Under the pieces are notes generated by a model. The model was not told the origin of the DNA. It ran no database searches and saw only the letters and a program-made list of their open reading frames with translations. Source: an archaeon (lineage in GTDB: Archaea; Nanobdellota; Nanobdellia; Pacearchaeales; GW2011-AR1). From it: 55,915 nucleotides of DNA. Of this stretch, positions 32,485-55,182 are shown in pieces. Each line of letters opens with the position of its first letter. The first letter of the stretch is position 1. The translations under genes and the position numbers were made by a program. Where the stretch lies: assembly GCA_018648095.1 (NCBI GenBank), contig JABGRV010000006.1, forward strand, positions 80,559 through 136,473, read 5' to 3'.

Positions 32485-32601
32485 AGTGGTGGATGAGATT
32501 GATGGAGGGGTTGTGGAGAAGCTAAAAAGACCAGGGTATGACAAATAATAGTATTTATAAATCTGAGAATATTCAAATTATTGGAATGGGTGATTTAAAT
32601 A

Positions 32602-33666
32602 ATGTCAAAAGATAAACCGTATACAGTGGCTTCCTTTTTTAGTGGTTGTGGTGGTTTTGATCACGGTTTTGAGAAAAATGATTTCTCAGTTTTATTTGGG
32701 AATGATTCGTGGGAGGATGCTGCTACGACATTTAGGGCAAATTATCCGCAAGTTAAATTTTTTGAGAAACCAATTCAAGACATTACTGAAGAAGAATTAG
32801 CAGAGGTTACTAATAACATGCAAGTTGATGTATTAATTGGGGGGCCCCCTTGCCAGTGTTTCACGAGATTAAATAATAATCATCTGATTAAGTTATCTGA
32901 ACTAAAAAAAGAAGACAATAGAAGAACGCTGTCTCAAGAGTATATTAAAAAGGTTAAACTTCTAAAACCAAAGATAGTGTTGATGGAAAATGTAAGGGAC
33001 CTTCTACATAGGAAAAATCAGGAGGGGAAATTATATTCTGAAATAATTCGGGAGGCATTCAAGGAAATTGGATATGAAACTTACTGTAAAATTATCTCCA
33101 TGGATAAGTATGATGTTCCTCAAAAAAGAAAAAGAGTGATTTTTCTAGCCACTAATGTAAAAAGGTTAATGGAATTTCTTGATGAAAATGTTGATAATGG
33201 ATTCCCAAAGGAATCGAATAGGATAATCACTTCCGGAGAAGCCCTAGCTAAAATAAAAGATAATGAAAGTTTAAGTAACCACAATTTTACGATTAATGAA
33301 CCAGAAACTCTAGAGAAAATAAGGAATATCCCCCCAGGAGGTTATTACGAAGATTTACCAGACTCATTAAAAACAAAGAAAATTCGTAATGGGAAGGAAG
33401 TGATAGTAAAAAGATATGGCTCTTATTATCGGAGGTTACATCCGGATGAGCCTTCAAGAACAATAACAAATAATTACGTAATCCACCCAATCAAAGATAG
33501 ATATCTTTCAAATAGGGAAATGGCAATTTTACATAGCTTTCCAAAACAGTATAAATTTAAAGGAAACATGGGCTCAGTATCTCAACAAATTGCAAATGCT
33601 GTTCCGCCAAAATTTGCCGAAAAAATGGCAAAAAGAGTCCAATTTTTATTGGATAATTATTGTTAA
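32602..33666 (+). CDS. DNA (cytosine-5)-methyltransferase
   Basis: Motif I ASFFSGCGGFDHGF, motif IV GGPPCQCFT, motif VI ENV. Confidence 0.85.
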   Translation: MSKDKPYTVASFFSGCGGFDHGFEKNDFSVLFGNDSWEDAATTFRANYPQVKFFEKPIQDITEEELAEVTNNMQVDVLIGGPPCQCFTRLNNNHLIKLSELKKEDNRRTLSQEYIKKVKLLKPKIVLMENVRDLLHRKNQEGKLYSEIIREAFKEIGYETYCKIISMDKYDVPQKRKRVIFLATNVKRLMEFLDENVDNGFPKESNRIITSGEALAKIKDNESLSNHNFTINEPETLEKIRNIPPGGYYEDLPDSLKTKKIRNGKEVIVKRYGSYYRRLHPDEPSRTITNNYVIHPIKDRYLSNREMAILHSFPKQYKFKGNMGSVSQQIANAVPPKFAEKMAKRVQFLLDNYC

Positions 33667-33672
33667 CTTCAA

Positions 33673-34815
33673 ATGGTAGAAAAAAGTTACAAACTGGGAA
33701 AAGAATATATAGATAAGGGCAATCCCAAGTTTGATGAAGATCAATTCATGCGTTGGTTAAATATTAAGAATGTAAGTGGAATGATGAATTCTCCAGGAAT
33801 TCGGTGGTTAAATTATGCGAAGAAAAAAGATCTTCCTGCCGCAATAATATTAATTTCAAAAACTGCTAGCAGTTCATATCATAATCCTTGGGAGGATGTA
33901 ATCGATAGATTGGCAGGTAAGGCATATTACTGGGGGGATTCTAAATATGATCTAAAAAAATCTTGTGAAGACTTCATGGGAAATAAATTACTAAAAAAGG
34001 TCCACGTTAATCTTTTGGAGGGTAATCTTGATAAGATTCCGCCAATTTTACTTTTTTCAAAGCCAGTAAGTGGAAAAATCTTTTTTGAGGGATTGTGCGT
34101 GTTAGAAAATCTTGAAAGAACTTGGTTTGAGGATAAGGGTAAACCTGTTAGAAATTATCGTGCAATACTCCGGATATTGGATACTGAAAAGGTAAAAATT
34201 GAGTGGATACATAACAGAATATATGAAAAAGAATCCGATTCTCCAAGTGCTTGGAAGGACTATTCTTCTGGAAAAACACCCAAATATCTGAAGGTATGGA
34301 ATAAACGATTAAGATCCAAAAATGAACAATTACCTCCAATTAATTCCAATGATGATTTAATTCTAAAGAGAATAAATAGTTTATTATCCCGGGAGTTTGA
34401 GTTTTTTACAGTAAGACTTCTGGAATCTATAAAAGATATAAAGCATGAAATTGTAACTACTCGGGCAGTAAGGGATAAGGGGTTTGATTTCTTTGGGAGA
34501 TTTACATTGCCATACCCCCTAAAATATGAAATAAATTTTAAAGGAGAAGCTAAAAAGTTTGCAAGGTCTAGCGGAGTTGGACCTAAGGAATTATCTCGTT
34601 TAGCAGCAAAACTAACTCGTGGAGAATATGGGATATTCATCACCACATCGTATTATACATTACAAGCGCAGGAAGAATTATTTGAAGATGATTATCCAAT
34701 TAAGTTAATTAGCGGCAACGATATTATTAATTTTTTAAAAGAGTCAAGAATGATAAAGAATAATGCCCTATCTGAAAAAGATCTTTTTAAATTTTTGAAC
34801 CTTAAGCAAGAATGA
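33673..34815 (+). CDS. restriction endonuclease with an Mrr-type catalytic domain (cognate REase candidate)
   Basis: The C-terminus ...DKGFDFFGRF...GEAKKF...EYGIFITTSYYTLQAQEEL resembles the Mrr_cat fold. It lies 7 nt downstream of the C5-methyltransferase. Confidence 0.55.
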   Translation: MVEKSYKLGKEYIDKGNPKFDEDQFMRWLNIKNVSGMMNSPGIRWLNYAKKKDLPAAIILISKTASSSYHNPWEDVIDRLAGKAYYWGDSKYDLKKSCEDFMGNKLLKKVHVNLLEGNLDKIPPILLFSKPVSGKIFFEGLCVLENLERTWFEDKGKPVRNYRAILRILDTEKVKIEWIHNRIYEKESDSPSAWKDYSSGKTPKYLKVWNKRLRSKNEQLPPINSNDDLILKRINSLLSREFEFFTVRLLESIKDIKHEIVTTRAVRDKGFDFFGRFTLPYPLKYEINFKGEAKKFARSSGVGPKELSRLAAKLTRGEYGIFITTSYYTLQAQEELFEDDYPIKLISGNDIINFLKESRMIKNNALSEKDLFKFLNLKQE

Positions 34816-34858
34816 TCACACAGTTAACTATAAATATGGCCATATTTATTACCTGATA

Positions 34859-35599
34859 ATGGAAGACTATGTAGATTTTGAAGATATATTTAAGAATTTA
34901 ATAAATACTCACAAAAAAGACGAAGATTTTGAGTTAATCAAAGACTATCCTGCAATTTTTTCTTTAATTTCAAATATTTCTAGTGATAAGAGTGCGGATG
35001 GGATCACAAAAATGCTTATGAATAGTGCTATTTCATATTTTATCCTTCCAGAAGATATTATTTCTGAGAAAGAGTATGGGGTAAAGGGTTATGTTGATGA
35101 TTTTTTTATTTGCTTACATGTCTTATCGGAATTCTTAAAATATGATTCTAAACTTGGAGAATATTTAATAAATAAATATTGGACCTTAAAAGAGGATTAT
35201 CACAATTATATCTCTAATAAGTATTATGAACTCATGAAGTTAATCGAGGACTCTGTAAGATCTAATATCTTGTTACATTCGGGTGTAAAATATATTGAAG
35301 AACTCATTATGAATAAAAAAAATCCAAGAAAATACCTTGAATTAAAGGGAAGAGATTTACAAAGAAAGATACATTATTTATTTTTCTTATTTCTTAATAG
35401 GCCTATTGGAAATAAAGAGGCAAAGAAGGAATTTGAAAAAAATTTCTTTGGAACTTCAGAGTTCATGGAATTTTCAAAGAAATTGGATCTACTTGAAAAA
35501 GAAGATAATTCTTTTAGTAGGGCTAAAAAAAATGTGGATGAAATGTTTAGTTTAGAAGAAAATATGAAAAATATAAGAATTAGGAGACTTCTTGGATGA
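34859..35599 (+). CDS. DUF1232 (YkvA-like) domain protein
   Basis: YFILPEDIISEKEYGVKGYVDDFFICLHV matches the DUF1232 pattern. Its stop overlaps the next start. Confidence 0.4.
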   Translation: MEDYVDFEDIFKNLINTHKKDEDFELIKDYPAIFSLISNISSDKSADGITKMLMNSAISYFILPEDIISEKEYGVKGYVDDFFICLHVLSEFLKYDSKLGEYLINKYWTLKEDYHNYISNKYYELMKLIEDSVRSNILLHSGVKYIEELIMNKKNPRKYLELKGRDLQRKIHYLFFLFLNRPIGNKEAKKEFEKNFFGTSEFMEFSKKLDLLEKEDNSFSRAKKNVDEMFSLEENMKNIRIRRLLG

Positions 35600-37623
35600 C
35601 TGGTTTAAAAGAATTATCTGATTCAATAGAGAAAATTTATGATTCCGATTCTGAAGACATAACTGAAATAATGAATCTTCTTTTGAAACAATCTATTAGA
35701 TATAGTAGGATCGGAAGCTATTTTTCTTCAAAATCTTTTATTTCATTAGCGGAGGGGTTGGAAGAACTCTTCTTAAAAAACGGAAAGATGAAGTTGATTA
35801 TTAATTATGAATTAAGTAAGGAAGACCATCAGGAGCTAAAGAAGACTTGTGACTACCAGAAAATTGGAGATAGAATAGCATTAGATATTAAAAATCTGAA
35901 ATCTGAAATGGAGTTAAATTCCGCTAAAGTTTTAGCATGGTTAATCTATCAGGGGAAACTTGAGATAAAGGTTGTTCTTGGAAAAGGCAATAACTTAATG
36001 CATATCAAACAAGGGATATTTGAAGATGAATATGGTGACAAAGTGGCATTTACTGGATCTGCAAATGAAACATATTCTGCCTATGAAAAAAATATTGAAC
36101 AAGTAACTTTTTTCAAAGACTGGATAAGTGGGCAGGAGGAATATGTAGGGGAGTTTATTTCCAAATTTAACAAGTTTTGGGATAATTGTGGGGTTGTGGC
36201 TAAAACTTATTCTTTATCAAAAGCTTTTGAGAACGAATTAATGAGAATTCGGCCAAGGACCGAGGCAGAATTAAAAGAATCCCTTCAAATTATTTCTTCC
36301 AAGAATATGTCCACTAAGAAGAAAAAATCACTCACTCCCTATCCCCATCAAGATGCCGCATTACAAGCGTGGTTGAAAAATGACAAGAGGGGCATAATTG
36401 AAATGCCTACTGGTTGTGGAAAGACCAAAACTGCCCTATTTGCTTTTAGAAAAGCTATAAAATCTGGAAAGAGCGCTACTTTTATCTTTGCTCCAACAAA
36501 GGCCATTTGTAATCAATGGATAGAGGAATTTGAAGGAGAACCTTGCAAAATTTGCAAAATTTATGATAATCCAAATTGGAAAAGAGATTTAAAGAAAAAT
36601 ATTTTGGATTTAAAACTGGGAGTATTTGAGAATCTTGTTGTAGTCGGAAGCTATGCACTAATAACTTCCAAAGTTCTTATCGAAGAAATTAGAACTTTGA
36701 CAGAATTTAACAAGTTTTTAATTGCAGATGAAGCTCATTCTACCGGGGCACTGAAGACCTCCGGGGGTTTAATAGAAGATTATAATTTTCGCCTGGCCTT
36801 AAGCGCTACTCCCAAAAGATATCTTGATGAGGACGGAACAAATAGAGTTTTTGATTTTTTTGGAGGGGTAGTTTATGACAAAATAGGATTATATGAGGCA
36901 ATTTATTCCTTGGGGGTGCTTTGTGAGTATGAGTATCATTTAATTCAAGTTTTTTTAAATGAAGAAGAAATGGCCCAATATTCCAAGCTGACAAAATTAT
37001 TAATTATGAAGGTTTCTATGAAATCGAAAGATAAGTACAATACAAATCTTGACTCAGAAATTCAAAGGCTTGCAGAAAAAAGGGCAAAGATTATAAAAAA
37101 TTGCTCTGCTAAACTAGACAAGCTTCCAGAGATAGTAGAAGAAATTAAAGAAGATAAGTCTATTATTTTCGTTTCTCCGAAACAACGGGAGGAGGTATTG
37201 AAGATAGTCAGAAATAGAATAAAATACCACCAATATACTTATTCTGAGGATACGGAAGTAAGATCTAGGGCCCTTGAAAATTTTAAAGAAGGAAAAATAC
37301 AGGCCTTAGTTGCAATAAAATGTCTTGATGAAGGTTTAGATGTGCCTGCTGCAAGGGCAGGAGTTATTATGGCAAGTTCTGGAAATCCCCGGGAGTTTAT
37401 TCAAAGGAGGGGCAGGCTTTTAAGAAAACATCCCAATAAAAAATATGCAAAGATTTTTGATTTTTTTGTAACTCCCTCTAAGGAGGCTATTAGCTCTTCG
37501 GAGATGTATAAAAATCAGATATCCAAAGAATTAAAAAGAATAACCGAGTTTGCAAAATCTGCTAGAAATGAAATAAAGGTATCGAAAGAATTAAAAGAGT
37601 TAAAATCTAAATTAGGCCTATGA
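35596..37623 (+). CDS. PLD-family (HKD) nuclease fused to an SF2 DEAH helicase
   Basis: HKD-type motif HIKQGIFEDEYGDKVAFTGSANET. Helicase motifs MPTGCGKT (I), IADEAHS (II), LSATP (III), QRRGRLLR (VI). Confidence 0.7.
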   Translation: MTGLKELSDSIEKIYDSDSEDITEIMNLLLKQSIRYSRIGSYFSSKSFISLAEGLEELFLKNGKMKLIINYELSKEDHQELKKTCDYQKIGDRIALDIKNLKSEMELNSAKVLAWLIYQGKLEIKVVLGKGNNLMHIKQGIFEDEYGDKVAFTGSANETYSAYEKNIEQVTFFKDWISGQEEYVGEFISKFNKFWDNCGVVAKTYSLSKAFENELMRIRPRTEAELKESLQIISSKNMSTKKKKSLTPYPHQDAALQAWLKNDKRGIIEMPTGCGKTKTALFAFRKAIKSGKSATFIFAPTKAICNQWIEEFEGEPCKICKIYDNPNWKRDLKKNILDLKLGVFENLVVVGSYALITSKVLIEEIRTLTEFNKFLIADEAHSTGALKTSGGLIEDYNFRLALSATPKRYLDEDGTNRVFDFFGGVVYDKIGLYEAIYSLGVLCEYEYHLIQVFLNEEEMAQYSKLTKLLIMKVSMKSKDKYNTNLDSEIQRLAEKRAKIIKNCSAKLDKLPEIVEEIKEDKSIIFVSPKQREEVLKIVRNRIKYHQYTYSEDTEVRSRALENFKEGKIQALVAIKCLDEGLDVPAARAGVIMASSGNPREFIQRRGRLLRKHPNKKYAKIFDFFVTPSKEAISSSEMYKNQISKELKRITEFAKSARNEIKVSKELKELKSKLGL

Positions 37624-37790
37624 ACGAGTTAAAAAAATTAGTAAATAAGGCGGTTCTTGAAAAAATACCCCTTTCAGAAGATCGGGAGGCACTTTTAGAA
37701 GCAATAAGTATTGAAGAAACTTTTGGTGGGTTAAAATCTACAGATCTATTAGATAAATATGAAAAAATTATAGAGGGACTTATAAAATGA
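37620..37790 (+). CDS. unannotated 56-aa ORF translationally coupled on both sides (MNELKKLVNKAVLEKIPLSEDREALLEA...)
   Basis: ATGA overlaps at both ends: 37620-37623 with the helicase stop and 37787-37790 with the ATPase start. Confidence 0.35.
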   Translation: MNELKKLVNKAVLEKIPLSEDREALLEAISIEETFGGLKSTDLLDKYEKIIEGLIK

Positions 37791-39781
37791 AGTTAAACAA
37801 AATTATAATTGAGAATTATCGGGGCTATTATGGTAAAAATGAGATCGAGTTTAATAATGGAGAAAAGGGAAAACATATAGATTTGATAATAGCACGTAAT
37901 GATACCGGAAAAACTACTTTTTTAAACGCTATCTATTGGTGTCTTTATGGTAAGGAACAATTCTATAATTCAAAAAATAGCAATCAAAGAGTTATGTCCA
38001 ATAAAAAGATTATTGAGACTCCAATTGGAGAAAAATTGAATTTTTCAGTCACACTAGTATTTAGTGATGATAAGGGTCCAAAGGTGGAGATAACTCGTCA
38101 GCGGATATTTAAGAGGGCCAGGGATGAAGATAACGATCTAAAAATTATTCAGGATGGAGAAGATAGATTTTTTGGAATGGAAATTAATAAGAAAGGAACG
38201 GGTTTTGAAAAGATTAATTACCTTGAGAACTTCATATCTTCCCAAATTCCTGAAGGGATAAGCCCTTTCTTTCTTTTAGATGGTGAACAGCTCAAAGCAA
38301 TATTTACTTCCGATATTAATTATAAAATAAAAGATGCCATTGAAAAAGTAGCTAACATAAAATCGATAAATGGTCTAATCGAAAATTTATCACGCTTAGA
38401 TCGCAATTATTCTAGTATGAAATCAGGTATAGATCCGAATTATGGGGCCATACAGGCAAGGATAGATAAGGCAGATGCCACCATCACAAAGACTAAGGCC
38501 GATTTAGAAGAATGGATGAAAGAAAAAGAATCATTAAAGAAACAAATCTCTGAACTTGATGATTATCTCCAGAACCACAATGAGACAGTAGTGAGGGAAC
38601 TAGGAGCAAGGGAACAAAATTTAAGGGGAACTATAGGGCGGGCAGATGAGGATCGTAAGGAATCCGAGGAAAAATTGAATAATATGGTAATCAAGGCCTA
38701 TATTCTAAAAATTGGGAAAAAGAGCCTTTTAGAAACAAGCGATAAGTTTAATGAGATCATTGAGGGGGGGAATTTTCCTCCTGCGGTAGATCCCTCACAT
38801 GTATTACAACTTATTAAGAGGAGAGAATGTATCTGTGGTACAAAAATATCAAAAAATTCTGAAGAAGAAGAAAAACTTAAGAAACTCGCAGATACCAAGA
38901 GTTTTAAAGAATATGTTAGAATAATCTCCCAAGGAGATGCCCAGCTCCCACAGATGATTGAATCTATAAAATCCCTTGTGGGCGATATATCGGTAGAAAG
39001 AAAGAAAGTGTATGGGCATGAGGCACTAATTAAAGATAGTAAAAAGGAGATAGATGAAATTACCTTAAAGTTAAAATCCTCCGACGTGGAAGAAATCCGT
39101 AATAAGGGAGAAGAAAAAGAAATGTTGGAAAGAGAAATTACTCGTAAGGAGGGAGATATCCATCGCGCAGAGGGAGATTTAGATGTTTTAAATATTTCTA
39201 AAAAAGATGATGCCTCTAAATTGAATAGCATAAAGATAAAAGAACTTAAAGATAAACTTCTCATCCAAAAATCAGAAAAATGTAAACAACTTATAACTTA
39301 CTCTAAGGAAATAAAAGAATCAATAATGAAAACTATAAAGGATAAAATAGAAGAATCTACTGCCAAAAACTTCGTAGATCTTCATTGGAAGGCAGAGGAT
39401 TATGAAAAGGTAAGTATCTTAGATGATTTTTCTCTTTCGGTAAGAGATAAATATCGTGGAGAGTTAATCAATGAACTTTCCCAGGGTGCAGCATTATGTT
39501 TTGGTCTTGCTTTTATGACCGCACTTAGGAATTATTCAGGATATGATGTCCCAGTAATAATCGATTCTCCGGTGGGAAAAATAGATGAGGGAAATAGAGA
39601 AAAGATTGCAAAGAGTTTACCTGAACAATTAAAGGGAAAGCAAGTAATCTTCTTAGTTACTAGCTCCGAATACACCTCAGTATTTAAGAAATTTCTTGAC
39701 GACAAAATTTCGACAAAAATTTCGTTAACTTATAATAAAAAAACTGGAGAAATAGACATAGACAATAATGGCAGCGATTGA
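37787..39781 (+). CDS. SMC-like ABC ATPase (AAA_23/DndD/SbcC-like)
   Basis: N-terminal Walker A ARNDTGKTTFLNAIYWCLYG. A long coiled-coil middle follows. C-terminal signature LSQGAALCFGLAF and D-loop VPVIIDSPVGKIDEGN. Confidence 0.7.
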   Translation: MKLNKIIIENYRGYYGKNEIEFNNGEKGKHIDLIIARNDTGKTTFLNAIYWCLYGKEQFYNSKNSNQRVMSNKKIIETPIGEKLNFSVTLVFSDDKGPKVEITRQRIFKRARDEDNDLKIIQDGEDRFFGMEINKKGTGFEKINYLENFISSQIPEGISPFFLLDGEQLKAIFTSDINYKIKDAIEKVANIKSINGLIENLSRLDRNYSSMKSGIDPNYGAIQARIDKADATITKTKADLEEWMKEKESLKKQISELDDYLQNHNETVVRELGAREQNLRGTIGRADEDRKESEEKLNNMVIKAYILKIGKKSLLETSDKFNEIIEGGNFPPAVDPSHVLQLIKRRECICGTKISKNSEEEEKLKKLADTKSFKEYVRIISQGDAQLPQMIESIKSLVGDISVERKKVYGHEALIKDSKKEIDEITLKLKSSDVEEIRNKGEEKEMLEREITRKEGDIHRAEGDLDVLNISKKDDASKLNSIKIKELKDKLLIQKSEKCKQLITYSKEIKESIMKTIKDKIEESTAKNFVDLHWKAEDYEKVSILDDFSLSVRDKYRGELINELSQGAALCFGLAFMTALRNYSGYDVPVIIDSPVGKIDEGNREKIAKSLPEQLKGKQVIFLVTSSEYTSVFKKFLDDKISTKISLTYNKKTGEIDIDNNGSD

Positions 39782-49058: not shown

Positions 49059-49400
49059 TCAATATTTGAATTTTTTCTCATAGGTTTTATGATCCATCCA
49101 GTCTAAAATAATTGTTATGATTATTGCTTCTCCCCCACGAATAGAGTAAATAAGTCTCCATGCCCCTGGGAGGTTATACTTCCACACATTACTGATGCCA
49201 TGTTTCTTAATATAATCTTTTGGGATTAATCTTTTTGGAATCTGAATTCCGCAGAAAGGATTTTCTTCTATATCGCCTAATGCCTTTTCTAATTGATCTT
49301 TTAGTGGTTTTTCTTCTAGTTCTTCATAGGTTTTTTGCACTTTTTCGTTCACAAATTGGACTTCGCAGGGCTTATTCACTTTTTCTTTCCTCCCCTCCAA
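49059..49400 (-). CDS. RelE/ParE-family toxin-like protein
   Basis: ...LEKALGDIEENPFCG...YNLPGAWRLIYSIRGGEAIIITIILDWMDHKTY follows the RelE/ParE consensus layout. Confidence 0.5.
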   Translation of the reverse strand: MEGRKEKVNKPCEVQFVNEKVQKTYEELEEKPLKDQLEKALGDIEENPFCGIQIPKRLIPKDYIKKHGISNVWKYNLPGAWRLIYSIRGGEAIIITIILDWMDHKTYEKKFKY

Positions 49401-49672
49401 GTCAAATGCGCCTTCTCAAGCCTCTTCTTTGCCTCTTCCGGATAAAATATCCACCCAATTTTTCCTTCACTATCTACAGAGATCTTTCCAGAGATTAATA
49501 GATAATCGATTATGGTACTATACGTTTGATACATCATTTTCTTAGGCAACCTCCCCCATAATTGCTTCTTTTTGTATTCTCCATCTCTTTCTTGTATAAA
49601 TTTTTCCACCATTAAGACCGTATCTAGTCGGGGAGATCTTGCAAGAGTTTTCTTTTCCATCATTAGTTTCAT
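49376..49672 (-). CDS. hypothetical 98-aa protein upstream of and overlapping the RelE-like gene (possible antitoxin)
   Basis: It overlaps the toxin gene by 25 nt in the expected antitoxin position. No fold was recognised. Confidence 0.3.
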   Translation of the reverse strand: MKLMMEKKTLARSPRLDTVLMVEKFIQERDGEYKKKQLWGRLPKKMMYQTYSTIIDYLLISGKISVDSEGKIGWIFYPEEAKKRLEKAHLTWRGGKKK

Positions 49673-49721: not shown

Positions 49722-49784
49722 TCAAACCTTCACCAACCCCTTCGGGAAATAAACATACTTATACTCTTCATAAGCAATCAACAT
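49722..49784 (-). pseudogene. orphan 3' fragment of an lrp-like gene (encodes MLIAYEEYKYVYFPKGLVKV*), part of the 48-bp direct repeat
   Basis: Near-identical at the DNA level to the true lrp 3' end at 54187..54234. Nothing lrp-like lies upstream of it. Confidence 0.6.
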
Positions 49785-49805
49785 TAAATAGGCACGAAAA
49801 ACAAT

Positions 49806-50771
49806 CTAATACTTATCCAATATCCCCAATAGATAATCATAAGATTTATTTGTTTGTTTTAACATGAATTGATAATATTTTTTCTTTCGCCCATCTCTTG
49901 CCGAAGCTATTGCATTGAAATATGATTCTTTGTTCTCTTTATGAACGATTATTGGGGGATACCCATTTTGAATCAATATCTTATTTAGGATTAATCTTCC
50001 AGTTCTTCCATTTGCATCTCTGAATGGGTGAATTCTTTCATATTCCAGATGAAAATCATATGCTAATATTAGGGGGTGAATTTTCTTTTTATTTTTCTTA
50101 TACCATTTAATCAATTCTTCCAGTTCTCTTTTGACATCTTTTGGATCGCTCGTTGGAGAGTTACCAACAACTAAATCCACTGTTTTAAATCCTCGGGGAT
50201 AGGGGTTTCTATTATCCATTAGCAATTTTTTAGTTAAAATATAATACAATCTTTTGATTGACTCCAGATTAAAATTAAAATCCTTTAGATATTCAAAGGC
50301 ATCTATTGAATTCAGTGCTTCACGTGCCTCATTTTTGTTTTTATAGCCTAGATTACCGGTTTCTATAATTTTTTTAACTGCCTGTTCAGGGATTTTTGAC
50401 CCCTCAATATTATTAGAATTAAAAATAAATTTAATTGCAAAATCTGTTTCGACAGATTTCGGATGTTTCTTTATCTCCTTTAAATTGTTTATCTTAATTG
50501 CTTTTTCTTCTATTTTTTCGGGAAGATTGCCATCATAAGATAATTCTTTATTAATTGATTTTAAAAAACCTAACTTGAAATTTAATTCTTCTTTTGTAAT
50601 TTTATCCAAATTTTCTAAAAGATGCTTTTCCTTAGTAATTGCTGAGGTCCCCTTTCCGATGTGTTCTTTGTATACAAATTTTTTACCCATAAAAGTAGAT
50701 TTTTTTACAAATTTAAGATAAGTATGCCCCTTAACTTCCACCTTATCAATCGAACTCATATAAATTATCAA
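49806..50771 (-). CDS. Fic/Doc family protein (second paralog)
   Basis: Fic motif HPFRDANGRTGR. It has the same overall layout as the Fic at 16484..17416. Confidence 0.8.
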   Translation of the reverse strand: MIIYMSSIDKVEVKGHTYLKFVKKSTFMGKKFVYKEHIGKGTSAITKEKHLLENLDKITKEELNFKLGFLKSINKELSYDGNLPEKIEEKAIKINNLKEIKKHPKSVETDFAIKFIFNSNNIEGSKIPEQAVKKIIETGNLGYKNKNEAREALNSIDAFEYLKDFNFNLESIKRLYYILTKKLLMDNRNPYPRGFKTVDLVVGNSPTSDPKDVKRELEELIKWYKKNKKKIHPLILAYDFHLEYERIHPFRDANGRTGRLILNKILIQNGYPPIIVHKENKESYFNAIASARDGRKKKYYQFMLKQTNKSYDYLLGILDKY

Positions 50772-50971: not shown

Positions 50972-51541
50972 ATGGAAAAAGGTGATATTCAAGCCATGTC
51001 TCAGAGAGAGCGGGACATTTATTTTTTAAGAGAGGCATTTAAGGCGGCACGAGATTTATCGCAAGATGCAAATCTTCAGACCGGGGCGGTAATCGTCAGC
51101 CCTTCATTAGAAATTATTTCCAGAGGGGCAAATAGAGTACATTTTGGTTTAAATGAGAGATATGATGGGAATGAGGAAAGAGTTATTCTTGAAAGACCTG
51201 AAAAATATTGTGATTTGACTCATGCTGAAAGAGATGCAGCTTATGTGGCAAATAGAAAGGGTATTTCCCTTGTGGGATGTACGCTTTATGCAACGTGGAC
51301 TCCTTGTGAACCTTGTGGAGAGATCGCAATGAATAATGGCATAGCAAGATTTGTTACGCATCAATCAACTACAGATTGGTACAATAAAGATGCAGGGAGT
51401 GTGAAAAATAGAACTGACTGGGCAGATAGCATAGTAAGAGCAATTGAAAAGTTAAGAAGATCCGGAATGGAATATGAATGTATAAGTGATCCAATTGGCG
51501 GAGTAGAATTCATTTTCGAGGATAAGATTAGAGCTCCTTGA
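50972..51541 (+). CDS. CMP/dCMP-deaminase-fold zinc deaminase
   Basis: HAERDAAY...CTLYATWTPCEPCGEIAM is the H(A)E ... PCxxC zinc-deaminase signature. The N-terminus YFLREAFKAARD resembles dCMP deaminases. Confidence 0.6.
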   Translation: MEKGDIQAMSQRERDIYFLREAFKAARDLSQDANLQTGAVIVSPSLEIISRGANRVHFGLNERYDGNEERVILERPEKYCDLTHAERDAAYVANRKGISLVGCTLYATWTPCEPCGEIAMNNGIARFVTHQSTTDWYNKDAGSVKNRTDWADSIVRAIEKLRRSGMEYECISDPIGGVEFIFEDKIRAP

Positions 51542-51645
51542 TCTCCCATCCTTCTAGATGCTTAAATGGTACTCGGAAACCTTAAAAACTCTAAAATCCC
51601 AATAAATGTATCCCAAAGGGAAGAAGAGTTCTGATAAAAAACAAA

Positions 51646-52743
51646 ATGGGATTAACAGCCATTGTGAAACCAACCCACGACTGCAATCTTAGGTGTAAAT
51701 ATTGCTATTTGACTGATGAGGCAGAAAAGGGAATGATGTCTCAAGAAACACTTCAAAATACTATGGCCCAGGTTGCAGAAGCATCGGGGGAAGGGGGAGC
51801 ACATTTTATTTGGCACGGTGGAGAACCACTATTGGCCGGAATGGATTTCTTTAGAGAAGCCGCACAAATTTCACATGCCCTTAAGGCAGATGGACGAAAC
51901 ATCTCTAATGCTATCCAATCAAATGGGACATTAATAACTGAAGAACTTTTAGATTTTATCGAACAAGAAAAAGATTTCTACCTAGGATTTAGCATCGATG
52001 GTCCAAAAGAAGTAAACGACAAAACAAGGGTTCATGCAAGTGGGAAAGGTGCATTTGAAGATATCTTTCGCGGAATAAAAATGGCAAGAGATCGAGAGGC
52101 ATTTGTTGGTAACGGTGCAATAACAGTAGTTAACAAAGAAAATTTGCCTCACCTTGACAAAATATATGATTTCTTTAACGGAGAAAAAATTAGTCTAAAA
52201 CTAAATCATATAATTGATGCAGCAGACCCAACTTTTGGAATCTCTCCTGTTGAGTATGCAACCGCAATGAATAAATTATTCGACAGATGGATCGAAGACT
52301 ACGATGCCATTAGAATAGATCCATTTTCTCAAATTATAGGAAATTTTATGACAAGTAGGCCTTCGGGGTGCAATTATTCGGGCTCTTGCCAAGACAACTT
52401 TGTATCTATAGGTCCCCAGGGAGATATATATCCGTGCGGAAGATTTGACGGACTAAAAGATTACTGGATGGGAAATGTAAACGAACCTAACGGATTAACA
52501 GAGGCACTTGAATCAAGCGTAAGAAAAAGACTTAAAGAAAGAAGACTAGAAAATATGGCAGGATGTAAAAAATGCGACTACGTACCAATTTGTAATGGAG
52601 GATGCCCACATAATGCCCTTGTTGCGGGAGATTTGATGGGCAAAGATCCCTATTGCGCCGGATATAAAATGATGTTCAAACATATTGAAAGGAAAGTACA
52701 TGAAGAATTAGCTAAGACCGAAATGAAAGGAGGTAAACAATAA
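51646..52743 (+). CDS. radical SAM enzyme with a C-terminal SPASM domain (anaerobic-sulfatase-maturase-like peptide-modifying enzyme)
   Basis: CNLRCKYCY (CxxxCxxC) at residues 13-21 with no N-terminal RRE. GGEPLL follows. SPASM cysteines CNYSGSC...C...GCKKCDYVPICNGGCPHN. Confidence 0.8.
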   Translation: MGLTAIVKPTHDCNLRCKYCYLTDEAEKGMMSQETLQNTMAQVAEASGEGGAHFIWHGGEPLLAGMDFFREAAQISHALKADGRNISNAIQSNGTLITEELLDFIEQEKDFYLGFSIDGPKEVNDKTRVHASGKGAFEDIFRGIKMARDREAFVGNGAITVVNKENLPHLDKIYDFFNGEKISLKLNHIIDAADPTFGISPVEYATAMNKLFDRWIEDYDAIRIDPFSQIIGNFMTSRPSGCNYSGSCQDNFVSIGPQGDIYPCGRFDGLKDYWMGNVNEPNGLTEALESSVRKRLKERRLENMAGCKKCDYVPICNGGCPHNALVAGDLMGKDPYCAGYKMMFKHIERKVHEELAKTEMKGGKQ

Positions 52744-52988
52744 TGGCCAAAAAGAAAAAAACCGGTGAAATAATGGGACATGAGATAGATCCTTCAAAAA
52801 TAAAAAATCCACATATCCGAAGAGCAATTAAGCAACGAGGCGGATTTTTATTTTGGTATCGTGAAAATAAAAACTATTGCGAAGGAGGATATCAACCAAC
52901 CCGCTGGCATACAGAACATACGGAAAGTGGAGCATATACTGAACAATATAGACATAATGAACACTGTGATGCAAACGACTACAGGTAG
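52743..52988 (+). CDS. small peptide A (81 aa; candidate precursor/substrate peptide of the radical SAM enzyme)
   Basis: Its ATG overlaps the radical SAM stop (TAATG). The core EIMGHEIDPSKIKNPHIRRAIKQRGGFLF is shared with peptide B. The C-terminus is Y/H/E/C-rich. Confidence 0.5.
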   Translation: MAKKKKTGEIMGHEIDPSKIKNPHIRRAIKQRGGFLFWYRENKNYCEGGYQPTRWHTEHTESGAYTEQYRHNEHCDANDYR

Positions 52989-52999
52989 TTATTAACAAA

Positions 53000-53209
53000 A
53001 TGAAAAACGAAAAAAGATTACCCGATAAATGTGAAATAATGGGACATCAAATAAGTTTAACAGATATCGAAAATCCACATATCCGAAGAGCAATTAAGCA
53101 ACGAGGCGGATTTTTATTTAAATATAAGGAAGTGGAAGACTACGATGATTTACCCCATCCACACTATCAAGCATACGATGATTCAGATGATTATCCGGAC
53201 ATGGATTAA
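53000..53209 (+). CDS. small peptide B (69 aa; paralog of peptide A)
   Basis: EIMGHQISLTDIENPHIRRAIKQRGGFLF, with a 48-nt stretch identical to peptide A. The C-terminus is acidic and Tyr/His-rich: DYDDLPHPHYQAYDDSDDYPDMD. Confidence 0.5.
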   Translation: MKNEKRLPDKCEIMGHQISLTDIENPHIRRAIKQRGGFLFKYKEVEDYDDLPHPHYQAYDDSDDYPDMD

Positions 53210-53256
53210 AGATATAATAAGGGCTCCTTGATTAACTTAATCCCCTGGCCTTTTTC

Positions 53257-54141
53257 TTACAATCCCATACCGCAAGCAACCTTTTGCTCTGCCGTTAAAT
53301 CCTTAATATCTTCCAAATTGAAAACTTGGCTACAGCATCCTGATCTCGCCCAATCCATATTTACTTTCTTACATAGCTCTGGGTCATTTTTTCTTATAGC
53401 AAAATCACTATAACATGAGCTTCGGGCATAACTCCCATCAAGGGGCCCATCATTAAGATATTTATCGCAAAAAGATTCATCCTCCTGTGTACGAGCATAT
53501 GCGAGATAACAGCTTTCACTTATCCACGCTCTTTCACAGATTGTAGGATCTCCTGCAGCAAAAGCCCTCTCGAAGTAGCAGCCTTCATCCCCAGTTAAAC
53601 AAAAACCATTATAGTAAAATTTACCAAAACCAATCAATAATGCTAAGATAATCAGGGCAACAAGAAGTATTGCTGTTCCTTTCCCACGTAAGGAAAAGTA
53701 GACCCAAGAAAATAAGCTAGAAAATATTATTCCAATGACAAAATATGCTGCGATAAAGCCAGTTATCATAAAATATGCCATAGCAGATTCTCCGGAGCAG
53801 ATACCCCTACAAGGAATCATCATAAGCCCATTAAGAAGAACCGCTAGTGCAATTGAGGATATCAATAAAAAATATAAATTTCTCGAAAAGGCTATTTTCC
53901 CTGATTGACGTTCTTTTGATTTTATTGTATTATACGAAGTTATTGAAAATATTATGAATATTGGAATTGGAAACATGAGGGCGGTCCCGAAGAGTCGACT
54001 GACTTCTCTGAATCCACTTACACTAAAAAAACCAACCAAGAGAAATATGCAAAATGTTAAAAGATAAAATCCAGCCCCCCATAAAACTGACTCTAGCAAA
54101 ATCTTCCCCCTACTTTTCACCTGAACTTCTTCTTGATCCAT
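53257..54141 (-). CDS. polytopic membrane protein with a C-terminal Cys-rich domain
   Basis: About 6 TM helices, then a ~110-aa domain with about 10 Cys. It is convergent with the peptide genes. Confidence 0.5.
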   Translation of the reverse strand: MDQEEVQVKSRGKILLESVLWGAGFYLLTFCIFLLVGFFSVSGFREVSRLFGTALMFPIPIFIIFSITSYNTIKSKERQSGKIAFSRNLYFLLISSIALAVLLNGLMMIPCRGICSGESAMAYFMITGFIAAYFVIGIIFSSLFSWVYFSLRGKGTAILLVALIILALLIGFGKFYYNGFCLTGDEGCYFERAFAAGDPTICERAWISESCYLAYARTQEDESFCDKYLNDGPLDGSYARSSCYSDFAIRKNDPELCKKVNMDWARSGCCSQVFNLEDIKDLTAEQKVACGMGL

Positions 54142-54168: not shown

Positions 54169-55182
54169 TTAAGGGTTTCCAACAAGCCCCTTCGGGAAAT
54201 AAACATACTTATACTCTTCATATGCAATCAGCATTTCATATCTGTTCAACTGCTTAGGAAACAATCCTCTCAACTTCAAGATCGTCTCCTGTAAATCCGC
54301 AACATCCTTGACCAATAGGTAGATCAAAACATTATATCTCCCAATAGTCTTAACTGCCCAAAGCGTATTACGATCTTTATCCAAGAAACTCTTCAACTTA
54401 TTCTCTTTCTCCGCATCGAACCCATCGATATTCAACAAGAAGGTGTATAAACTATAACCAAGCGAGATATAATTAATCGCAGGGATAAACTTGATGATCA
54501 CTCCTGATGCAATCATGTTCTTTATCCTATAACTAACAGCGTCGGCAGAAAGCCCAACTTTCCCCCCGATCTCAAACAAAGGAGTCTGAGCTTCTTCTCC
54601 CAAAATATCCAAGATTTTAATATCAACTCCATCCAACTTACCACGACTACCCCCAACAACATCCTTCTTCATTGGAGCCAACCCAGAAAAATTAGGTGGA
54701 AAAGTCTCCGCAACATAATTCTTTGAGATCGCCAGAACTTCATAATCCTGGATCATCCCATTACAATCTGATAGAACCTTCCCTAAAACATCATCCAAAC
54801 CAGAAACACCCTTAGCCACCAATGCAATCTCCAAATCAAAGTTCCCACTGAACTTCAAGATCGCCCTAATAAATGGCCGCTTCACCAACTTAGCAACAAC
54901 CTTCTTTTCAGCTTCAGAAGATGGATTATTCAACTTAATGAACAGATGATAATTGTCATAGCCAAATTTTCCAATATTCACAATCGTTCTATAACCCTGA
55001 ATAACTCCCTTATCCTCAAACCCCTTAATTCTATAGCTCACAGCATCCCTAGAAAGCCCCACCTTCTTAGAAATCTGGGTGAGTGGCATCCTAGCATCAG
55101 TAGAAAGAAGTGAAACAATCTTCTTATCCTTCACATCAAGCTTAACCTGCTTAACCTTTCCATTCTTCTGTAAGTATCTCAT
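54169..55182 (-). CDS. tandem-duplicated Lrp/AsnC-family transcriptional regulator (two HTH+RAM units)
   Basis: Two repeats of ...KIVSLLSTDARMPLTQISKKVGLSRDAVSYRIK... / ...KILDILGEEAQTPLFEIGGKVGLSADAVSYRIK..., each followed by a RAM-like region. Confidence 0.75.
   Translation of the reverse strand: MRYLQKNGKVKQVKLDVKDKKIVSLLSTDARMPLTQISKKVGLSRDAVSYRIKGFEDKGVIQGYRTIVNIGKFGYDNYHLFIKLNNPSSEAEKKVVAKLVKRPFIRAILKFSGNFDLEIALVAKGVSGLDDVLGKVLSDCNGMIQDYEVLAISKNYVAETFPPNFSGLAPMKKDVVGGSRGKLDGVDIKILDILGEEAQTPLFEIGGKVGLSADAVSYRIKNMIASGVIIKFIPAINYISLGYSLYTFLLNIDGFDAEKENKLKSFLDKDRNTLWAVKTIGRYNVLIYLLVKDVADLQETILKLRGLFPKQLNRYEMLIAYEEYKYVYFPKGLVGNP

What the first reader, a model, noticed from the sequence alone, without database searches (positions are those of the whole stretch)
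51646..54141. Radical SAM/SPASM maturase translationally coupled to two tandem paralogous small peptides: candidate novel archaeal RiPP-like system
The radical SAM gene has CxxxCxxC at residues 13-21, GGEPLL, and a C-terminal SPASM cysteine set. It has no N-terminal RRE, which makes it anSME-like. Its stop overlaps the start of an 81-aa ORF (TAATG), and a paralogous 69-aa ORF follows 12 bp later.

The two peptides share the core (E)IMGH-x-I ... NPHIRRAIKQRGGFLF, including a 48-nt perfectly identical DNA stretch. Downstream of the FLF they diverge completely. Peptide A ends in a Tyr/His/Glu/Cys-rich tail (FWYRENKNYCEGGYQPTRWHTEHTESGAYTEQYRHNEHCDANDYR). Peptide B ends in a Tyr/His/Asp tail (FKYKEVEDYDDLPHPHYQAYDDSDDYPDMD). 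A conserved leader-like core next to a hypervariable aromatic/acidic C-terminus, beside a SPASM enzyme, is the classic RiPP precursor/maturase layout.

The conserved GG just before the divergence point could be a double-glycine-type processing site. The Tyr/His/Glu-rich tails suggest candidate chemistries such as PqqE-like C-C crosslinks or three-residue cyclophanes. No sulfatase is nearby, so a canonical anSME role is unlikely. A Cys-rich polytopic membrane protein lies convergently beside the peptides and could be an export, immunity or receptor partner.
Basis: partly seen in the sequence, partly recalled or inferred. Interest (0 to 1): 0.88.

Follow-up and report, generated by a model that had tools for sequence, protein, structure and literature searches.

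The report
Archaeal radical-SAM peptide-modification cassette, undescribed family
A radical-SAM enzyme gene is followed by two small genes whose products have a conserved docking head and a tail of repeated aromatic-x-acidic triplets; this gene pair recurs in many tiny (DPANN) archaea, is in no curated family, and most likely makes a multiply cross-linked peptide.

Summary
A 365-aa radical SAM/SPASM gene (51646-52743) overlaps the start of an 81-aa ORF (TAATG). A paralogous 69-aa ORF follows 11 nt later.

The pairing is not chance. Every enzyme homolog of at least about 38% identity that I could inspect, except one, carries one to at least four such small genes beside it. Six of six peptide-first look-ups landed next to this enzyme. 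Three natural enzyme-peptide fusions exist.

A search of 1.84 billion proteins found 59 real hits (including the two window peptides). All are 56-119 aa, with the conserved part at the N-terminus.

The "hypervariable" tails hide a strict rule: His, Tyr or Trp followed two residues later by Asp or Glu. In 49 independent peptides this occurs 420 times against 129±9 expected, with a median of 8 per peptide.

The enzyme reaches no curated family cut-off. DynA is the closest model. Its fold matches anSME and the cyclophane synthase ChlB equally well, and it lacks the anSME catalytic Asp.

Best reading: a new leader-guided peptide-modification family that probably cross-links aromatic side chains to Asp/Glu carbons at i+2 (triceptide- or dynobactin-like). 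The chemistry is inferred, not shown. The double-glycine site and the membrane-protein partner are not supported.

The parts
51646..52743 (+). Radical SAM/SPASM peptide maturase, 365 aa. It has no RRE and an anSME/DynA/ChlB-like single-module architecture.
   Evidence: Pfam Radical_SAM and SPASM both pass cut-off. The best NCBIfam model is DynA at 279.9 bits, below its 450 cut-off. The AF2 model has pLDDT 89.6. Foldseek gives anSMEcpe TM 0.85-0.87 and ChlB TM 0.85. There are 11 conserved cluster Cys.
52729..52734 (+). GGAGGT Shine-Dalgarno-like motif, 8 nt before the pepA ATG and inside the 3' end of the enzyme gene.
   Evidence: Read directly from the sequence. Together with the TAATG stop/start overlap it argues for translational coupling.
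52743..52988 (+). pepA, an 81-aa precursor. The leader is residues 1-37 (52743-52853). The tail is residues 38-81 (52854-52985) and holds 7 aromatic-x-acidic triplets: YRE, YCE, HTE, HTE, YTE, HNE, HCD.
   Evidence: ORF. Leader HMM E=6e-20. 7 triplets against 2.1 expected, p=0.0005.
53000..53209 (+). pepB, a 69-aa paralogous precursor. The leader is residues 1-40 (53000-53119). The tail is residues 41-69 (53120-53206) and holds 4 triplets: YKE, YDD, YDD, YPD.
   Evidence: ORF. Leader HMM E=5.5e-22. The homolog P0137 has a closely similar tail. Annotated in NCBI as a 56-aa hypothetical protein.
52804..52853 (+). 50-nt block identical to 53070-53119. It encodes (K/E)NPHIRRAIKQRGGFLF, the helix part of the leader, in both paralogs.
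   Evidence: Longest-common-substring computation and DNA alignment A1.

Best explanation
This is a three-gene cassette: one radical SAM/SPASM enzyme and two tandem substrate peptides.

Each peptide has an N-terminal recognition head of about 35-40 residues. The head is a beta-hairpin around the I-x-G-H motif, followed by an N-P-capped amphipathic helix, followed by F-L-F. The head docks on the enzyme, which has no RRE domain. The disordered C-terminal tail is then fed into the active site.

The tail is an array of (His/Tyr/Trp)-x-(Asp/Glu) triplets. The most likely reaction is as follows. The 5'-deoxyadenosyl radical abstracts a hydrogen from a side-chain carbon of the Asp or Glu. The resulting carbon radical attacks the aromatic ring two residues upstream. 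This gives one three-residue macrocycle (-2 Da) per triplet, up to 7 in pepA and 4 in pepB.

In about a third of related loci a stand-alone C39-like cysteine peptidase follows the peptide gene and probably removes the head. The window has none.

What is shown: the gene pair is real, conserved and specific; the head is conserved and the tail periodic; the enzyme has the three-cluster SPASM architecture.

What is inferred: that the tail is the substrate, that the triplet is the unit modified, and the type of bond formed.
For: Adjacency:
- All enzyme homologs of at least 38% identity that I fetched, except L091, have 1 to at least 4 leader-HMM-positive ORFs within 0-72 nt. There are 24 distinct loci.
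- They span an unclassified archaeon, Woesearchaeota, Aenigmatarchaeota, Methanosarcinales and one Kiritimatiellae bacterium.

Reverse test:
- Six of six peptides looked up are next to the enzyme.

Natural fusions:
- P0120 is an enzyme-leader-tail fusion found as the same ORF in two independent assemblies. P0072 and the L093 ORF are further fusions.
- In the AF2 model of P0120 the leader is confident (pLDDT 86-92; strands 393-396 and 399-402, then a helix from residue 409, confident to about 420). The tail is below 50.

Family size:
- The exhaustive search of 1.84e9 representatives found 61 hits. 59 of them are 56-119 aa proteins with the leader at the N-terminus.

Periodicity of the tails:
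- Aromatic with D/E at +2: 138 observed against 48±5 expected (z 16.5), with +1 and +3 depleted.
- Out of sample, in 49 new peptides: 420 against 129±9 (z 32). 70% of His and 72% of Tyr obey the rule.
- Over all 67 peptides the median is 8 triplets, and more than half of the tails have no Cys.

Enzyme relatives:
- The closest curated model is DynA. The fold is equally close to anSME and to the multiple-cyclophane synthase ChlB.
- Characterised relatives DarE and the triceptide synthases act on three-residue motifs, joining an aromatic ring at position 1 to C-beta of position 3 (PMC11499958, PMC10125368, PMC10705402).

Peptidase:
- A C39-like peptidase lies next to the peptide in 7 loci.
Against: - No chemistry has been measured. 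No tool here can show a cross-link.
- I know of no characterised three-residue cyclophane with Asp or Glu at position 3.
- pepB on its own is not significantly enriched (4 triplets against 2.6 expected, p=0.23).
- Position 2 is Ser or Thr in 41% of triplets. This could point to anSME-like chemistry on that residue instead.
- No exporter, immunity gene or peptidase is linked in the window, so it is unproven that a secreted natural product results.
- The AF2 output gives confidence only, not contacts. Docking of the leader is inferred from pLDDT.
Confidence: 0.6

Rival explanations
1. The enzyme acts like an anaerobic sulfatase-maturating enzyme on the tail. It would oxidise the Ser/Thr/Cys at the middle position of the triplets to an aldehyde or ketone, or epimerise or hydroxylate a residue, without forming a cross-link.
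For: anSMEcpe is the best solved sequence and fold match (147 bits; TM 0.85-0.87). TIGR03942 is the second-best NCBIfam hit. Ser or Thr occupies 231 of 557 middle positions.
Against: - The middle position is not conserved. In the window it is R, C, T, T, T, N, C in pepA and K, D, D, P in pepB.
- The invariant features are the aromatic residue and the acid at +2.
- The anSME catalytic Asp277 position is Gly in 26 of 27 clade members.
- The TIGR03942 score is 103 bits below its cut-off.
- The peptides contain no C/S-x-P/A-x-R sulfatase motif.
Confidence: 0.13
2. The peptides are precursors of a small redox cofactor or metal chelator, in the manner of PqqA/PqqE. Each Tyr/His-x-Glu/Asp unit would be cross-linked and then excised, rather than forming a finished macrocyclic peptide.
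For: PqqE is a SPASM enzyme that joins Glu to Tyr in PqqA (established knowledge). Tails rich in His, Asp, Tyr and Glu resemble metal-binding sequences (composition). Repeats would give many units per precursor. No exporter is linked.
Against: No PqqB/C/D/F-like tailoring genes are conserved near any locus. PqqE is only a distant structural match (TMq 0.59, rank 27). The triplet spacing (i, i+2) differs from that of PqqA (Glu-x3-Tyr).
Confidence: 0.1
3. The small proteins are not substrates. They would be accessory or regulatory subunits that bind the enzyme through the conserved head, and the real substrate is encoded elsewhere.
For: The conserved head is predicted to be ordered when fused to the enzyme. 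Fusions of enzyme and small protein exist.
Against: - An accessory subunit would not need a disordered, fast-evolving tail that nevertheless keeps a strict triplet rule.
- It would not need 2 to at least 4 tandem paralogs with different tails.
- It would not need an adjacent C39-like peptidase.
Confidence: 0.05
4. The small ORFs are chance ORFs or untranslated.
For: They are short. Neither Pfam nor NCBIfam matches them.
Against: The codon-position substitution pattern is 73/39/118. Protein-level conservation covers 59 cluster representatives. A Shine-Dalgarno-like motif and a stop/start overlap are present. In-frame fusions to the enzyme exist.
Confidence: 0.01

Closest known systems
Dynobactin and darobactin maturases (DynA, NF041298; DarE, NF038005) with their precursors
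   Same: DynA is the best-scoring curated model, aligned end to end (279.9 bits). These are SPASM radical SAM enzymes that recognise the leader without an RRE (stated for DarE in PMC10705402). They act on three-residue motifs, linking an aromatic residue to C-beta of residue i+2 (darobactin: PMC10125368, PMC10705402). From my own knowledge, dynobactin also uses His as the aromatic partner.
   Different: The score is far below the DynA cut-off of 450. The precursors are unrelated in sequence. Here there are many triplets per peptide (median 8) rather than two rings, and the acceptor residue is Asp or Glu. The hosts are DPANN archaea, not gamma-proteobacteria. DarE has an extra N-terminal lobe of about 60 aa that this enzyme lacks.
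Triceptides and three-residue cyclophane-forming enzymes (ChlB, YhhB, HaaB, HtkB, GrrM/OscB, FxsB, AmcB)
   Same: The precursors carry repeated aromatic-X-X motifs after a leader. The enzymes are SPASM radical SAM enzymes. ChlB, a multiple-cyclophane synthase solved with its leader, matches the model at TM 0.85. His and Tyr are accepted as ring donors (PMC11499958).
   Different: All NCBIfam triceptide models score 119-153 bits against cut-offs of 310-445. Known position-3 residues are Asn, Lys, Arg, Ala and Ser. Acidic Asp/Glu at position 3 is not among those described in the papers I could read. No archaeal member was found in the literature searched.
Anaerobic sulfatase-maturating enzyme (anSMEcpe, PDB 4K36-4K39; TIGR03942)
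   Same: It is the best solved-structure match in both sequence and fold. It has the same length, the same lack of an RRE, and the same two fully Cys-ligated auxiliary clusters.
   Different: The score is below the family cut-off. The position of the catalytic base Asp277 is Gly. None of the neighbouring genes scanned is a sulfatase, and the adjacent peptides lack the sulfatase motif.
TIGR04083 'peptide-modifying radical SAM enzyme' of methanogens (Haft's predicted system)
   Same: It is the third-best NCBIfam hit (216.9 bits). It is an archaeal, RRE-less SPASM enzyme predicted to modify an adjacent peptide.
   Different: The score is below the cut-off of 300. A true member (Methanosarcina, locus L030) scores 708 bits and belongs to a different clade.
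PqqE/PqqA, PapB and QhpD (SPASM enzymes that functionalise Glu or Asp side-chain carbons)
   Same: They set a precedent for radical H-abstraction at Asp C-beta or Glu C-gamma, followed by bond formation to Tyr (PqqE) or Cys (PapB, QhpD). This is established knowledge. PapB scores 154.7 bits.
   Different: The partner residue or the spacing differs. PqqE and PapB use RRE/PqqD-type recognition. In this family more than half of the tails contain no Cys.

Membership tests
Radical SAM superfamily (PF04055) | CX3CX2C motif binding the SAM-cleaving [4Fe-4S] cluster, within a partial TIM barrel. | tested here: met
   C13/C17/C20 are invariant in 27 clade members. Pfam score is 74.9 bits against a cut-off of 29.5. 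The AF2 model shows a beta/alpha barrel.
SPASM subfamily (PF13186 / TIGR04085) | C-terminal Cys-rich domain ligating two auxiliary [4Fe-4S] clusters. | tested here: met
   Pfam SPASM scores 27.3 bits against a cut-off of 21.5. Eight invariant Cys are present: 242, 248, 264, 307, 310, 316, 320, 337.
anSME (TIGR03942) | Score at or above the curated cut-off of 349.45. | tested here: not met
   The score is 246.7 bits.
anSME (TIGR03942) | Catalytic base Asp277 (anSMEcpe numbering), immediately after the cluster ligand Cys276. | tested here: not met
   The anSMEcpe YPC276-D277 aligns with Y262-P263-C264-G265 in the window enzyme. The position is Gly in 26 of 27 clade members. The catalytic role of Asp277 is taken from established knowledge (Goldman et al. 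2013).
anSME (TIGR03942) | A sulfatase substrate with a C/S-x-P/A-x-R motif encoded nearby. | tested here: not met
   Neither peptide contains the motif. None of the 23 window ORFs scanned against Pfam is a sulfatase. The remaining ORFs in the window were not scanned.
DynA, dynobactin maturase (NF041298) | Score at or above the curated cut-off of 450. | tested here: not met
   The score is 279.9 bits. It is the best hit and aligns end to end (residues 3-353 against model positions 1-355).
TIGR04083 methanogen peptide-modifying rSAM | Score at or above the curated cut-off of 300. | tested here: not met
   The score is 216.9 bits. A true member scores 708 bits.
Triceptide system (3-CyFE plus precursor) | The precursor carries aromatic(1)-X(2)-X(3) motifs downstream of a leader. 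| tested here: met
   [HYW]-x-[DE] occurs 420 times against 129±9 expected in 49 independent peptides. Offsets +1 and +3 are depleted. pepA has 7 motifs (p=0.0005).
Triceptide system (3-CyFE plus precursor) | An aromatic C(sp2) to C-beta(sp3) cross-link is actually formed. | not testable with these tools
   This needs LC-MS/MS and NMR on co-expressed product.
Triceptide system (3-CyFE plus precursor) | The enzyme reaches the cut-off of a curated cyclophane-synthase model (YhhB 445, GrrM/OscB 310, AmcB 425, FxsB 370). | tested here: not met
   The scores are 152.6, 134, 128.6 and 119.2 bits.
Double-glycine leader with C39 peptidase processing | A conserved GG/GA/GS at the leader-core junction across the family. 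| tested here: not met
   GGF[LI]F occurs in only 1 of 49 independent members. Loci that do carry the peptidase have GG, AG, GD or no Gly at that position.
Double-glycine leader with C39 peptidase processing | A C39-type peptidase encoded in the cluster. | tested here: inconclusive
   A stand-alone papain-like peptidase of about 205 aa lies next to the peptide gene in 7 of 24 loci. The L007 copy passes the Pfam C39, C39_2 and DUF3335 cut-offs. None is found in the 56-kb window (tblastn).
RRE-dependent RiPP maturases | A PqqD-like RiPP recognition element, fused or adjacent. | tested here: not met
   The enzyme starts 12 residues before the first cluster Cys. Neither the enzyme nor the neighbours scanned show a PqqD or RRE Pfam hit.

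The most novel reading that the evidence does not exclude
The enzyme installs a bond type not yet described: an aromatic ring of His, Tyr or Trp joined to a side-chain carbon of Asp or Glu at i+2. It would do so iteratively, up to about 17 times per peptide, producing a rigid acidic 'ladder' of fused small rings. DPANN archaea have minimal genomes and live attached to host cells. They would keep this cassette because the product acts in host interaction or metal capture. That would make it the first radical-SAM cross-linked peptide class native to archaea.
Probability: 0.3. Interest if true: 0.8.

Novelty: new variant of a known kind. Interest (0 to 1): 0.64.

Why it matters
**Place among known systems.** Radical-SAM cross-linked peptides such as darobactin, dynobactin and the triceptides are a fast-growing source of antibiotics and of new enzyme chemistry. 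The examples in the literature I could search are almost all bacterial.

**What is new here.**
- It is a coherent family that appears in no curated model and in none of the literature I could search.
- It centres on DPANN archaea.
- Its leader has its own fold, and recognition needs no RRE.
- Its substrate rule (His/Tyr/Trp-x-Asp/Glu, many copies per peptide) points to an acidic acceptor residue not seen in characterised cyclophanes.

**Why it is testable.** The system is only two genes. A single co-expression experiment can test the prediction of -2 Da per triplet.

**Open biological question.** Genome-reduced episymbionts retain and horizontally exchange this cassette. What they do with it is unknown.

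Tried and rejected
- **Word-index peptide searches.** A search with pepA returned only itself. A search with a 16-leader alignment returned 7 hits. The index is poor for short proteins, so I used the exhaustive search instead.
- **False long hits.** Three were checked and dismissed. P0128 (7139 aa) is eleven repeats of 5.5 bits each that add up. P0147 is a tandem-repeat artefact. P0187 (730 aa, in the same 90% cluster as pepB) is a PriA helicase and a clustering artefact.
- **Complex modelling.** Adding free peptides to a fusion alignment (A6) was abandoned because MAFFT placed them over the enzyme N-terminus. I used the natural fusion P0120 instead.
- **Membrane protein as partner.** The Cys-rich membrane ORF (53257-54141) has no homolog in any of the other loci then in hand.
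- **Double-glycine site.** It is not conserved across the family.
- **Known defence system.** PADLOC gives only a generic radical-SAM match to viperin (45 bits) and nothing for the peptides.
- **Curated peptide families.** Neither NCBIfam nor Pfam matched any of eight family peptides.
- **Transcription signals.** No intrinsic-terminator-like site was found, and sigma-70-like sites are no more frequent than chance. The scan does not cover archaeal promoters.
- **Literature.** Searches on triceptides, archaea, DPANN, Woesearchaeota and TIGR04083 found no description of this family. The key triceptide landscape paper (JACS 2022) and the dynobactin paper are not held, so prior listing in their supplementary data cannot be excluded.
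Full report
**1. Observation**

- The enzyme (51646-52743, 365 aa) has CX3CX2C at C13/C17/C20 and GGEPLL at residues 58-63. It passes the Pfam Radical_SAM and SPASM cut-offs.
- Its TAA stop overlaps the ATG of an 81-aa ORF, pepA (52743-52988). A GGAGGT motif sits 8 nt upstream of that ATG.
- A 69-aa paralog, pepB (53000-53209), starts 11 nt after the pepA stop.
- The two share the core EIMGH-x-I...NPHIRRAIKQRGGFLF, including a 50-nt identical DNA block. After FLF they diverge completely.

**2. Are the small ORFs real genes?**

Yes.
- Among five near-clade leader cores, nucleotide differences fall 73/39/118 on codon positions 1/2/3. There are 79 synonymous against 89 non-synonymous codon differences.
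- P0137, a homolog from another metagenome, has a tail closely similar to that of pepB.
- NCBI annotates both peptides as hypothetical proteins of an unclassified archaeon.

**3. Is the pairing with the enzyme conserved?**

Enzyme-first test:
- The enzyme has thousands of homologs.
- The first three close homologs (71-77% identity) each had a small ORF starting exactly at the enzyme stop. Each ORF had the same N-terminal core and an unrelated tail.
- I then fetched 160 loci from species genomes and metagenomes using an enzyme alignment. I listed the ORF after each enzyme and scored all six-frame ORFs with a leader HMM.
- Every enzyme of at least 38% identity except one (L091) has one to at least four leader-positive ORFs immediately beside it. 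That gives 24 distinct loci.
- No leader hit lies anywhere else in about 1 Mb of fetched DNA, or elsewhere in the window.

Peptide-first test:
- Six peptides looked up by exact sequence all sit directly after a radical SAM/SPASM gene.

Variations on the arrangement:
- Tandem copies are common: two in L165/L166, at least two in L172, at least four in L171.
- In L088 the peptide gene precedes the enzyme.
- Three natural fusions of enzyme, leader and tail exist. P0120 is the same ORF in two independent assemblies. The others are P0072 and the L093 ORF.

Hosts named in records:
- an unclassified archaeon, Candidatus Woesearchaeota, Candidatus Aenigmatarchaeota, Methanosarcinales, and one Kiritimatiellae bacterium
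- enzyme homologs of 47-55% identity are also named Nanoarchaeia, Nanoarchaeota and Pacearchaeota; I did not inspect their loci for the peptide

**4. Size and shape of the peptide family**

- A profile of eight leaders was searched against 1.84 billion representative proteins. It gave 61 hits at E ≤ 0.001.
- 59 of them are proteins of 56-119 aa with the match at the N-terminus.
- The other two are artefacts.
- The peptides are therefore never domains of larger characterised proteins.
- None matches Pfam or NCBIfam.

**5. The hidden rule in the "hypervariable" tails**

The tails are rich in Asp, Tyr, Ser and His. The arrangement is not random.
- In the 18 peptides collected through the enzyme, an aromatic residue with Asp or Glu two residues later occurs 138 times. 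Within-tail shuffles give 48±5 (z 16.5). Offsets +1 and +3 are depleted.
- I then tested the rule on 49 peptides that were not used to form it. The result was 420 against 129±9 (z 32). 70% of His and 72% of Tyr obey the rule.
- Over all 67 peptides the median is 8 triplets and the maximum 17. HTD, HSD, YSD and YDD are the commonest.
- Position 2 is variable, with Ser or Thr in 41% of triplets. More than half of the tails have no Cys.
- The first triplet, Y-x-D/E, usually follows directly after the conserved F-[LIM]-F.
- In the window, pepA has seven triplets (YRE, YCE, HTE, HTE, YTE, HNE, HCD; p=0.0005). pepB has four (YKE, YDD, YDD, YPD), which is not significant on its own.

**6. The enzyme**

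- No curated NCBIfam cut-off is reached. DynA scores 279.9 (cut-off 450), anSME 246.7 (349.45) and TIGR04083 216.9 (300). The triceptide synthases score 119-153.
- Relatives throughout the clade give the same ranking. A true TIGR04083 member from Methanosarcina scores 708 bits and is a different clade.
- The closest solved sequence is anSMEcpe (147 bits).
- An AF2 model (pLDDT 89.6) matches anSMEcpe at TM 0.85-0.87. It matches ChlB, a multiple-cyclophane synthase solved with its leader, at TM 0.85. It matches the sactipeptide synthase CteB at 0.78.
- The anSME catalytic base Asp277 (role from established knowledge) aligns with Gly265. That position is Gly in 26 of 27 clade members.
- There is no RRE domain.

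**7. How the leader may be recognised**

- In the AF2 model of the natural fusion P0120, the linker after the enzyme is uncertain (pLDDT 67).
- The leader is confident (pLDDT 86-92) even though only two rows of the alignment cover it. It forms two short strands (393-396 and 399-402, the I-x-[FLM]-G-x-x-I motif), followed by a helix that starts at the N-P motif.
- The tail is below pLDDT 50.
- This fits an ordered leader docked on the enzyme with a disordered core. I could not inspect contacts.

**8. Accessory genes**

- A stand-alone papain-like peptidase of about 205 aa lies next to the peptide gene in 7 of the 24 loci. It carries conserved RCAQ and GHY motifs, and the L007 copy passes the Pfam C39, C39_2 and DUF3335 cut-offs. 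The window has none.
- The GG before FLF occurs only in the nearest clade, in 1 of 49 independent peptides. It does not correlate with the presence of the peptidase. The cleavage site is therefore unknown.
- An uncharacterised protein of about 530-556 aa is conserved divergently upstream of the enzyme in six loci, and downstream in L088. It is absent from the window.
- The Cys-rich membrane ORF beside pepB has no homolog at any other locus.

**9. Mechanism**

The best-supported model is a leader-guided radical SAM/SPASM maturase that modifies each aromatic-x-acid triplet.

The inference rests on analogy with the closest characterised enzymes:
- DarE and the triceptide synthases join an aromatic ring at position 1 to C-beta of position 3 (PMC11499958, PMC10125368, PMC10705402).
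- From my own knowledge, DynA does the same.
- SPASM enzymes are known to abstract hydrogen from Asp or Glu side chains (PqqE, PapB, QhpD; established knowledge).

I therefore predict one macrocycle per triplet, with a loss of 2 Da each. The bond type (C-C, C-N through His, or C-O) and the carbon used are open.

Rival readings are listed with their tests:
- anSME-like oxidation of the middle residue
- a cofactor or chelator precursor
- an accessory subunit rather than a substrate

**10. Novelty**

- The kind of system is known: a radical-SAM RiPP built on three-residue aromatic motifs.
- This family has its own leader, an acidic acceptor residue, many repeats per peptide and a DPANN-centred distribution.
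- It has no curated model. I found no paper describing it.
- Two key subscription papers were not available, so earlier listing in supplementary tables cannot be excluded.
- I rate it a new variant of a known kind.

**11. Context in the window**

- The cassette lies in a 4.45-kb segment bracketed by a 59-nt direct repeat of 90% identity. The repeat duplicates the 3' end of an AsnC/Lrp-type gene.
- The segment also holds a Fic/SoFic-like gene and a cytidine/dCMP deaminase, both of which match defence-associated models.
- A ParE-like toxin pair and restriction and helicase genes lie nearby.
- Together with the presence of the cassette in a Kiritimatiellae bacterium and in Methanosarcinales, this suggests that it moves horizontally.

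Noticed in passing
window 49732-49790 and 54182-54240: A 59-nt direct repeat of 90% identity. The second copy is the 3' end of the double-HTH AsnC/Lrp gene (54169-55182, minus strand). The repeats bracket 4.45 kb that hold the Fic gene, the deaminase, the rSAM gene, pepA, pepB and the membrane ORF. This looks like an insertion that duplicated the end of the target gene. There is no integrase inside, and GC content is not distinctive.
   Followed up: partly
window 51521-51542 and 53211-53232: A 22-nt direct repeat (18 of 22 identical...GCTCCTTGAT) lies exactly at the two ends of the rSAM-pepA-pepB block. It could mark cassette boundaries, or it could be chance.
   Followed up: no
window 49806-50771 (-) and 50972-51541 (+): The Fic-domain protein matches the PADLOC candidate defence families PDC-S04 and SoFic (133 bits). 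The cytidine/dCMP deaminase directly upstream of the rSAM gene matches the deaminase part of a dCTP-deaminase defence model (43.6 bits).
   Followed up: partly
window 49059-49400 (-) and 49376-49672 (-): A weak ParE/RelE-like toxin (21.2 bits, just below cut-off) with an overlapping 98-aa partner ORF. This is probably a toxin-antitoxin pair, and it lies just outside the repeat-bracketed segment.
   Followed up: no
window 30970-39781: A defence-island-like run of genes: DUF2779, an AspBHI/Mrr-type restriction endonuclease, a PLD-ResIII helicase and an AAA_23/AAA_15 ATPase.
   Followed up: no
window 53257-54141 (-): A 294-aa polytopic membrane ORF with a Cys-rich C-terminal domain. It matches no Pfam, NCBIfam or PADLOC model and has no homolog at any related locus. 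Its function is unknown, and it is not part of the cassette.
   Followed up: partly
L001 3247-4917 (-); also L003, L004, L170, L007, L086, L088: A protein of about 530-556 aa with no Pfam or PDB match is conserved next to the rSAM gene across enzymes of 43-77% identity. It is divergently upstream, except in L088 where it is downstream. It is absent from the window. It may be a further component of the system.
   Followed up: partly
P0120 (L173 453-1811; L174 144-1502), P0072, L093 3471-4796: Natural single-ORF fusions of the rSAM enzyme with the leader and tail. P0120 is identical in two independent assemblies. The tail of the L093 fusion lacks the triplets and may be degenerate.
   Followed up: yes
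L095, L099, L100, L104; L107, L109, L110: More distant enzymes (33-37% identity, also closest to DynA) are followed by peptides with a similar I-x-[IV]-L-G-H-x-V head but different tails. The tails end in NVYKYAFF or in YDKHSDWGQQGQCGCVMGCLGG. This suggests a wider superfamily of leaders for RRE-less SPASM enzymes.
   Followed up: partly
L165 2504-3414: In one 296-kb contig the rSAM gene upstream of two intact precursor genes is split into 147-aa and 159-aa ORFs. This is either a pseudogene or an assembly frameshift. The near-identical locus L166 has the intact 375-aa gene.
   Followed up: no
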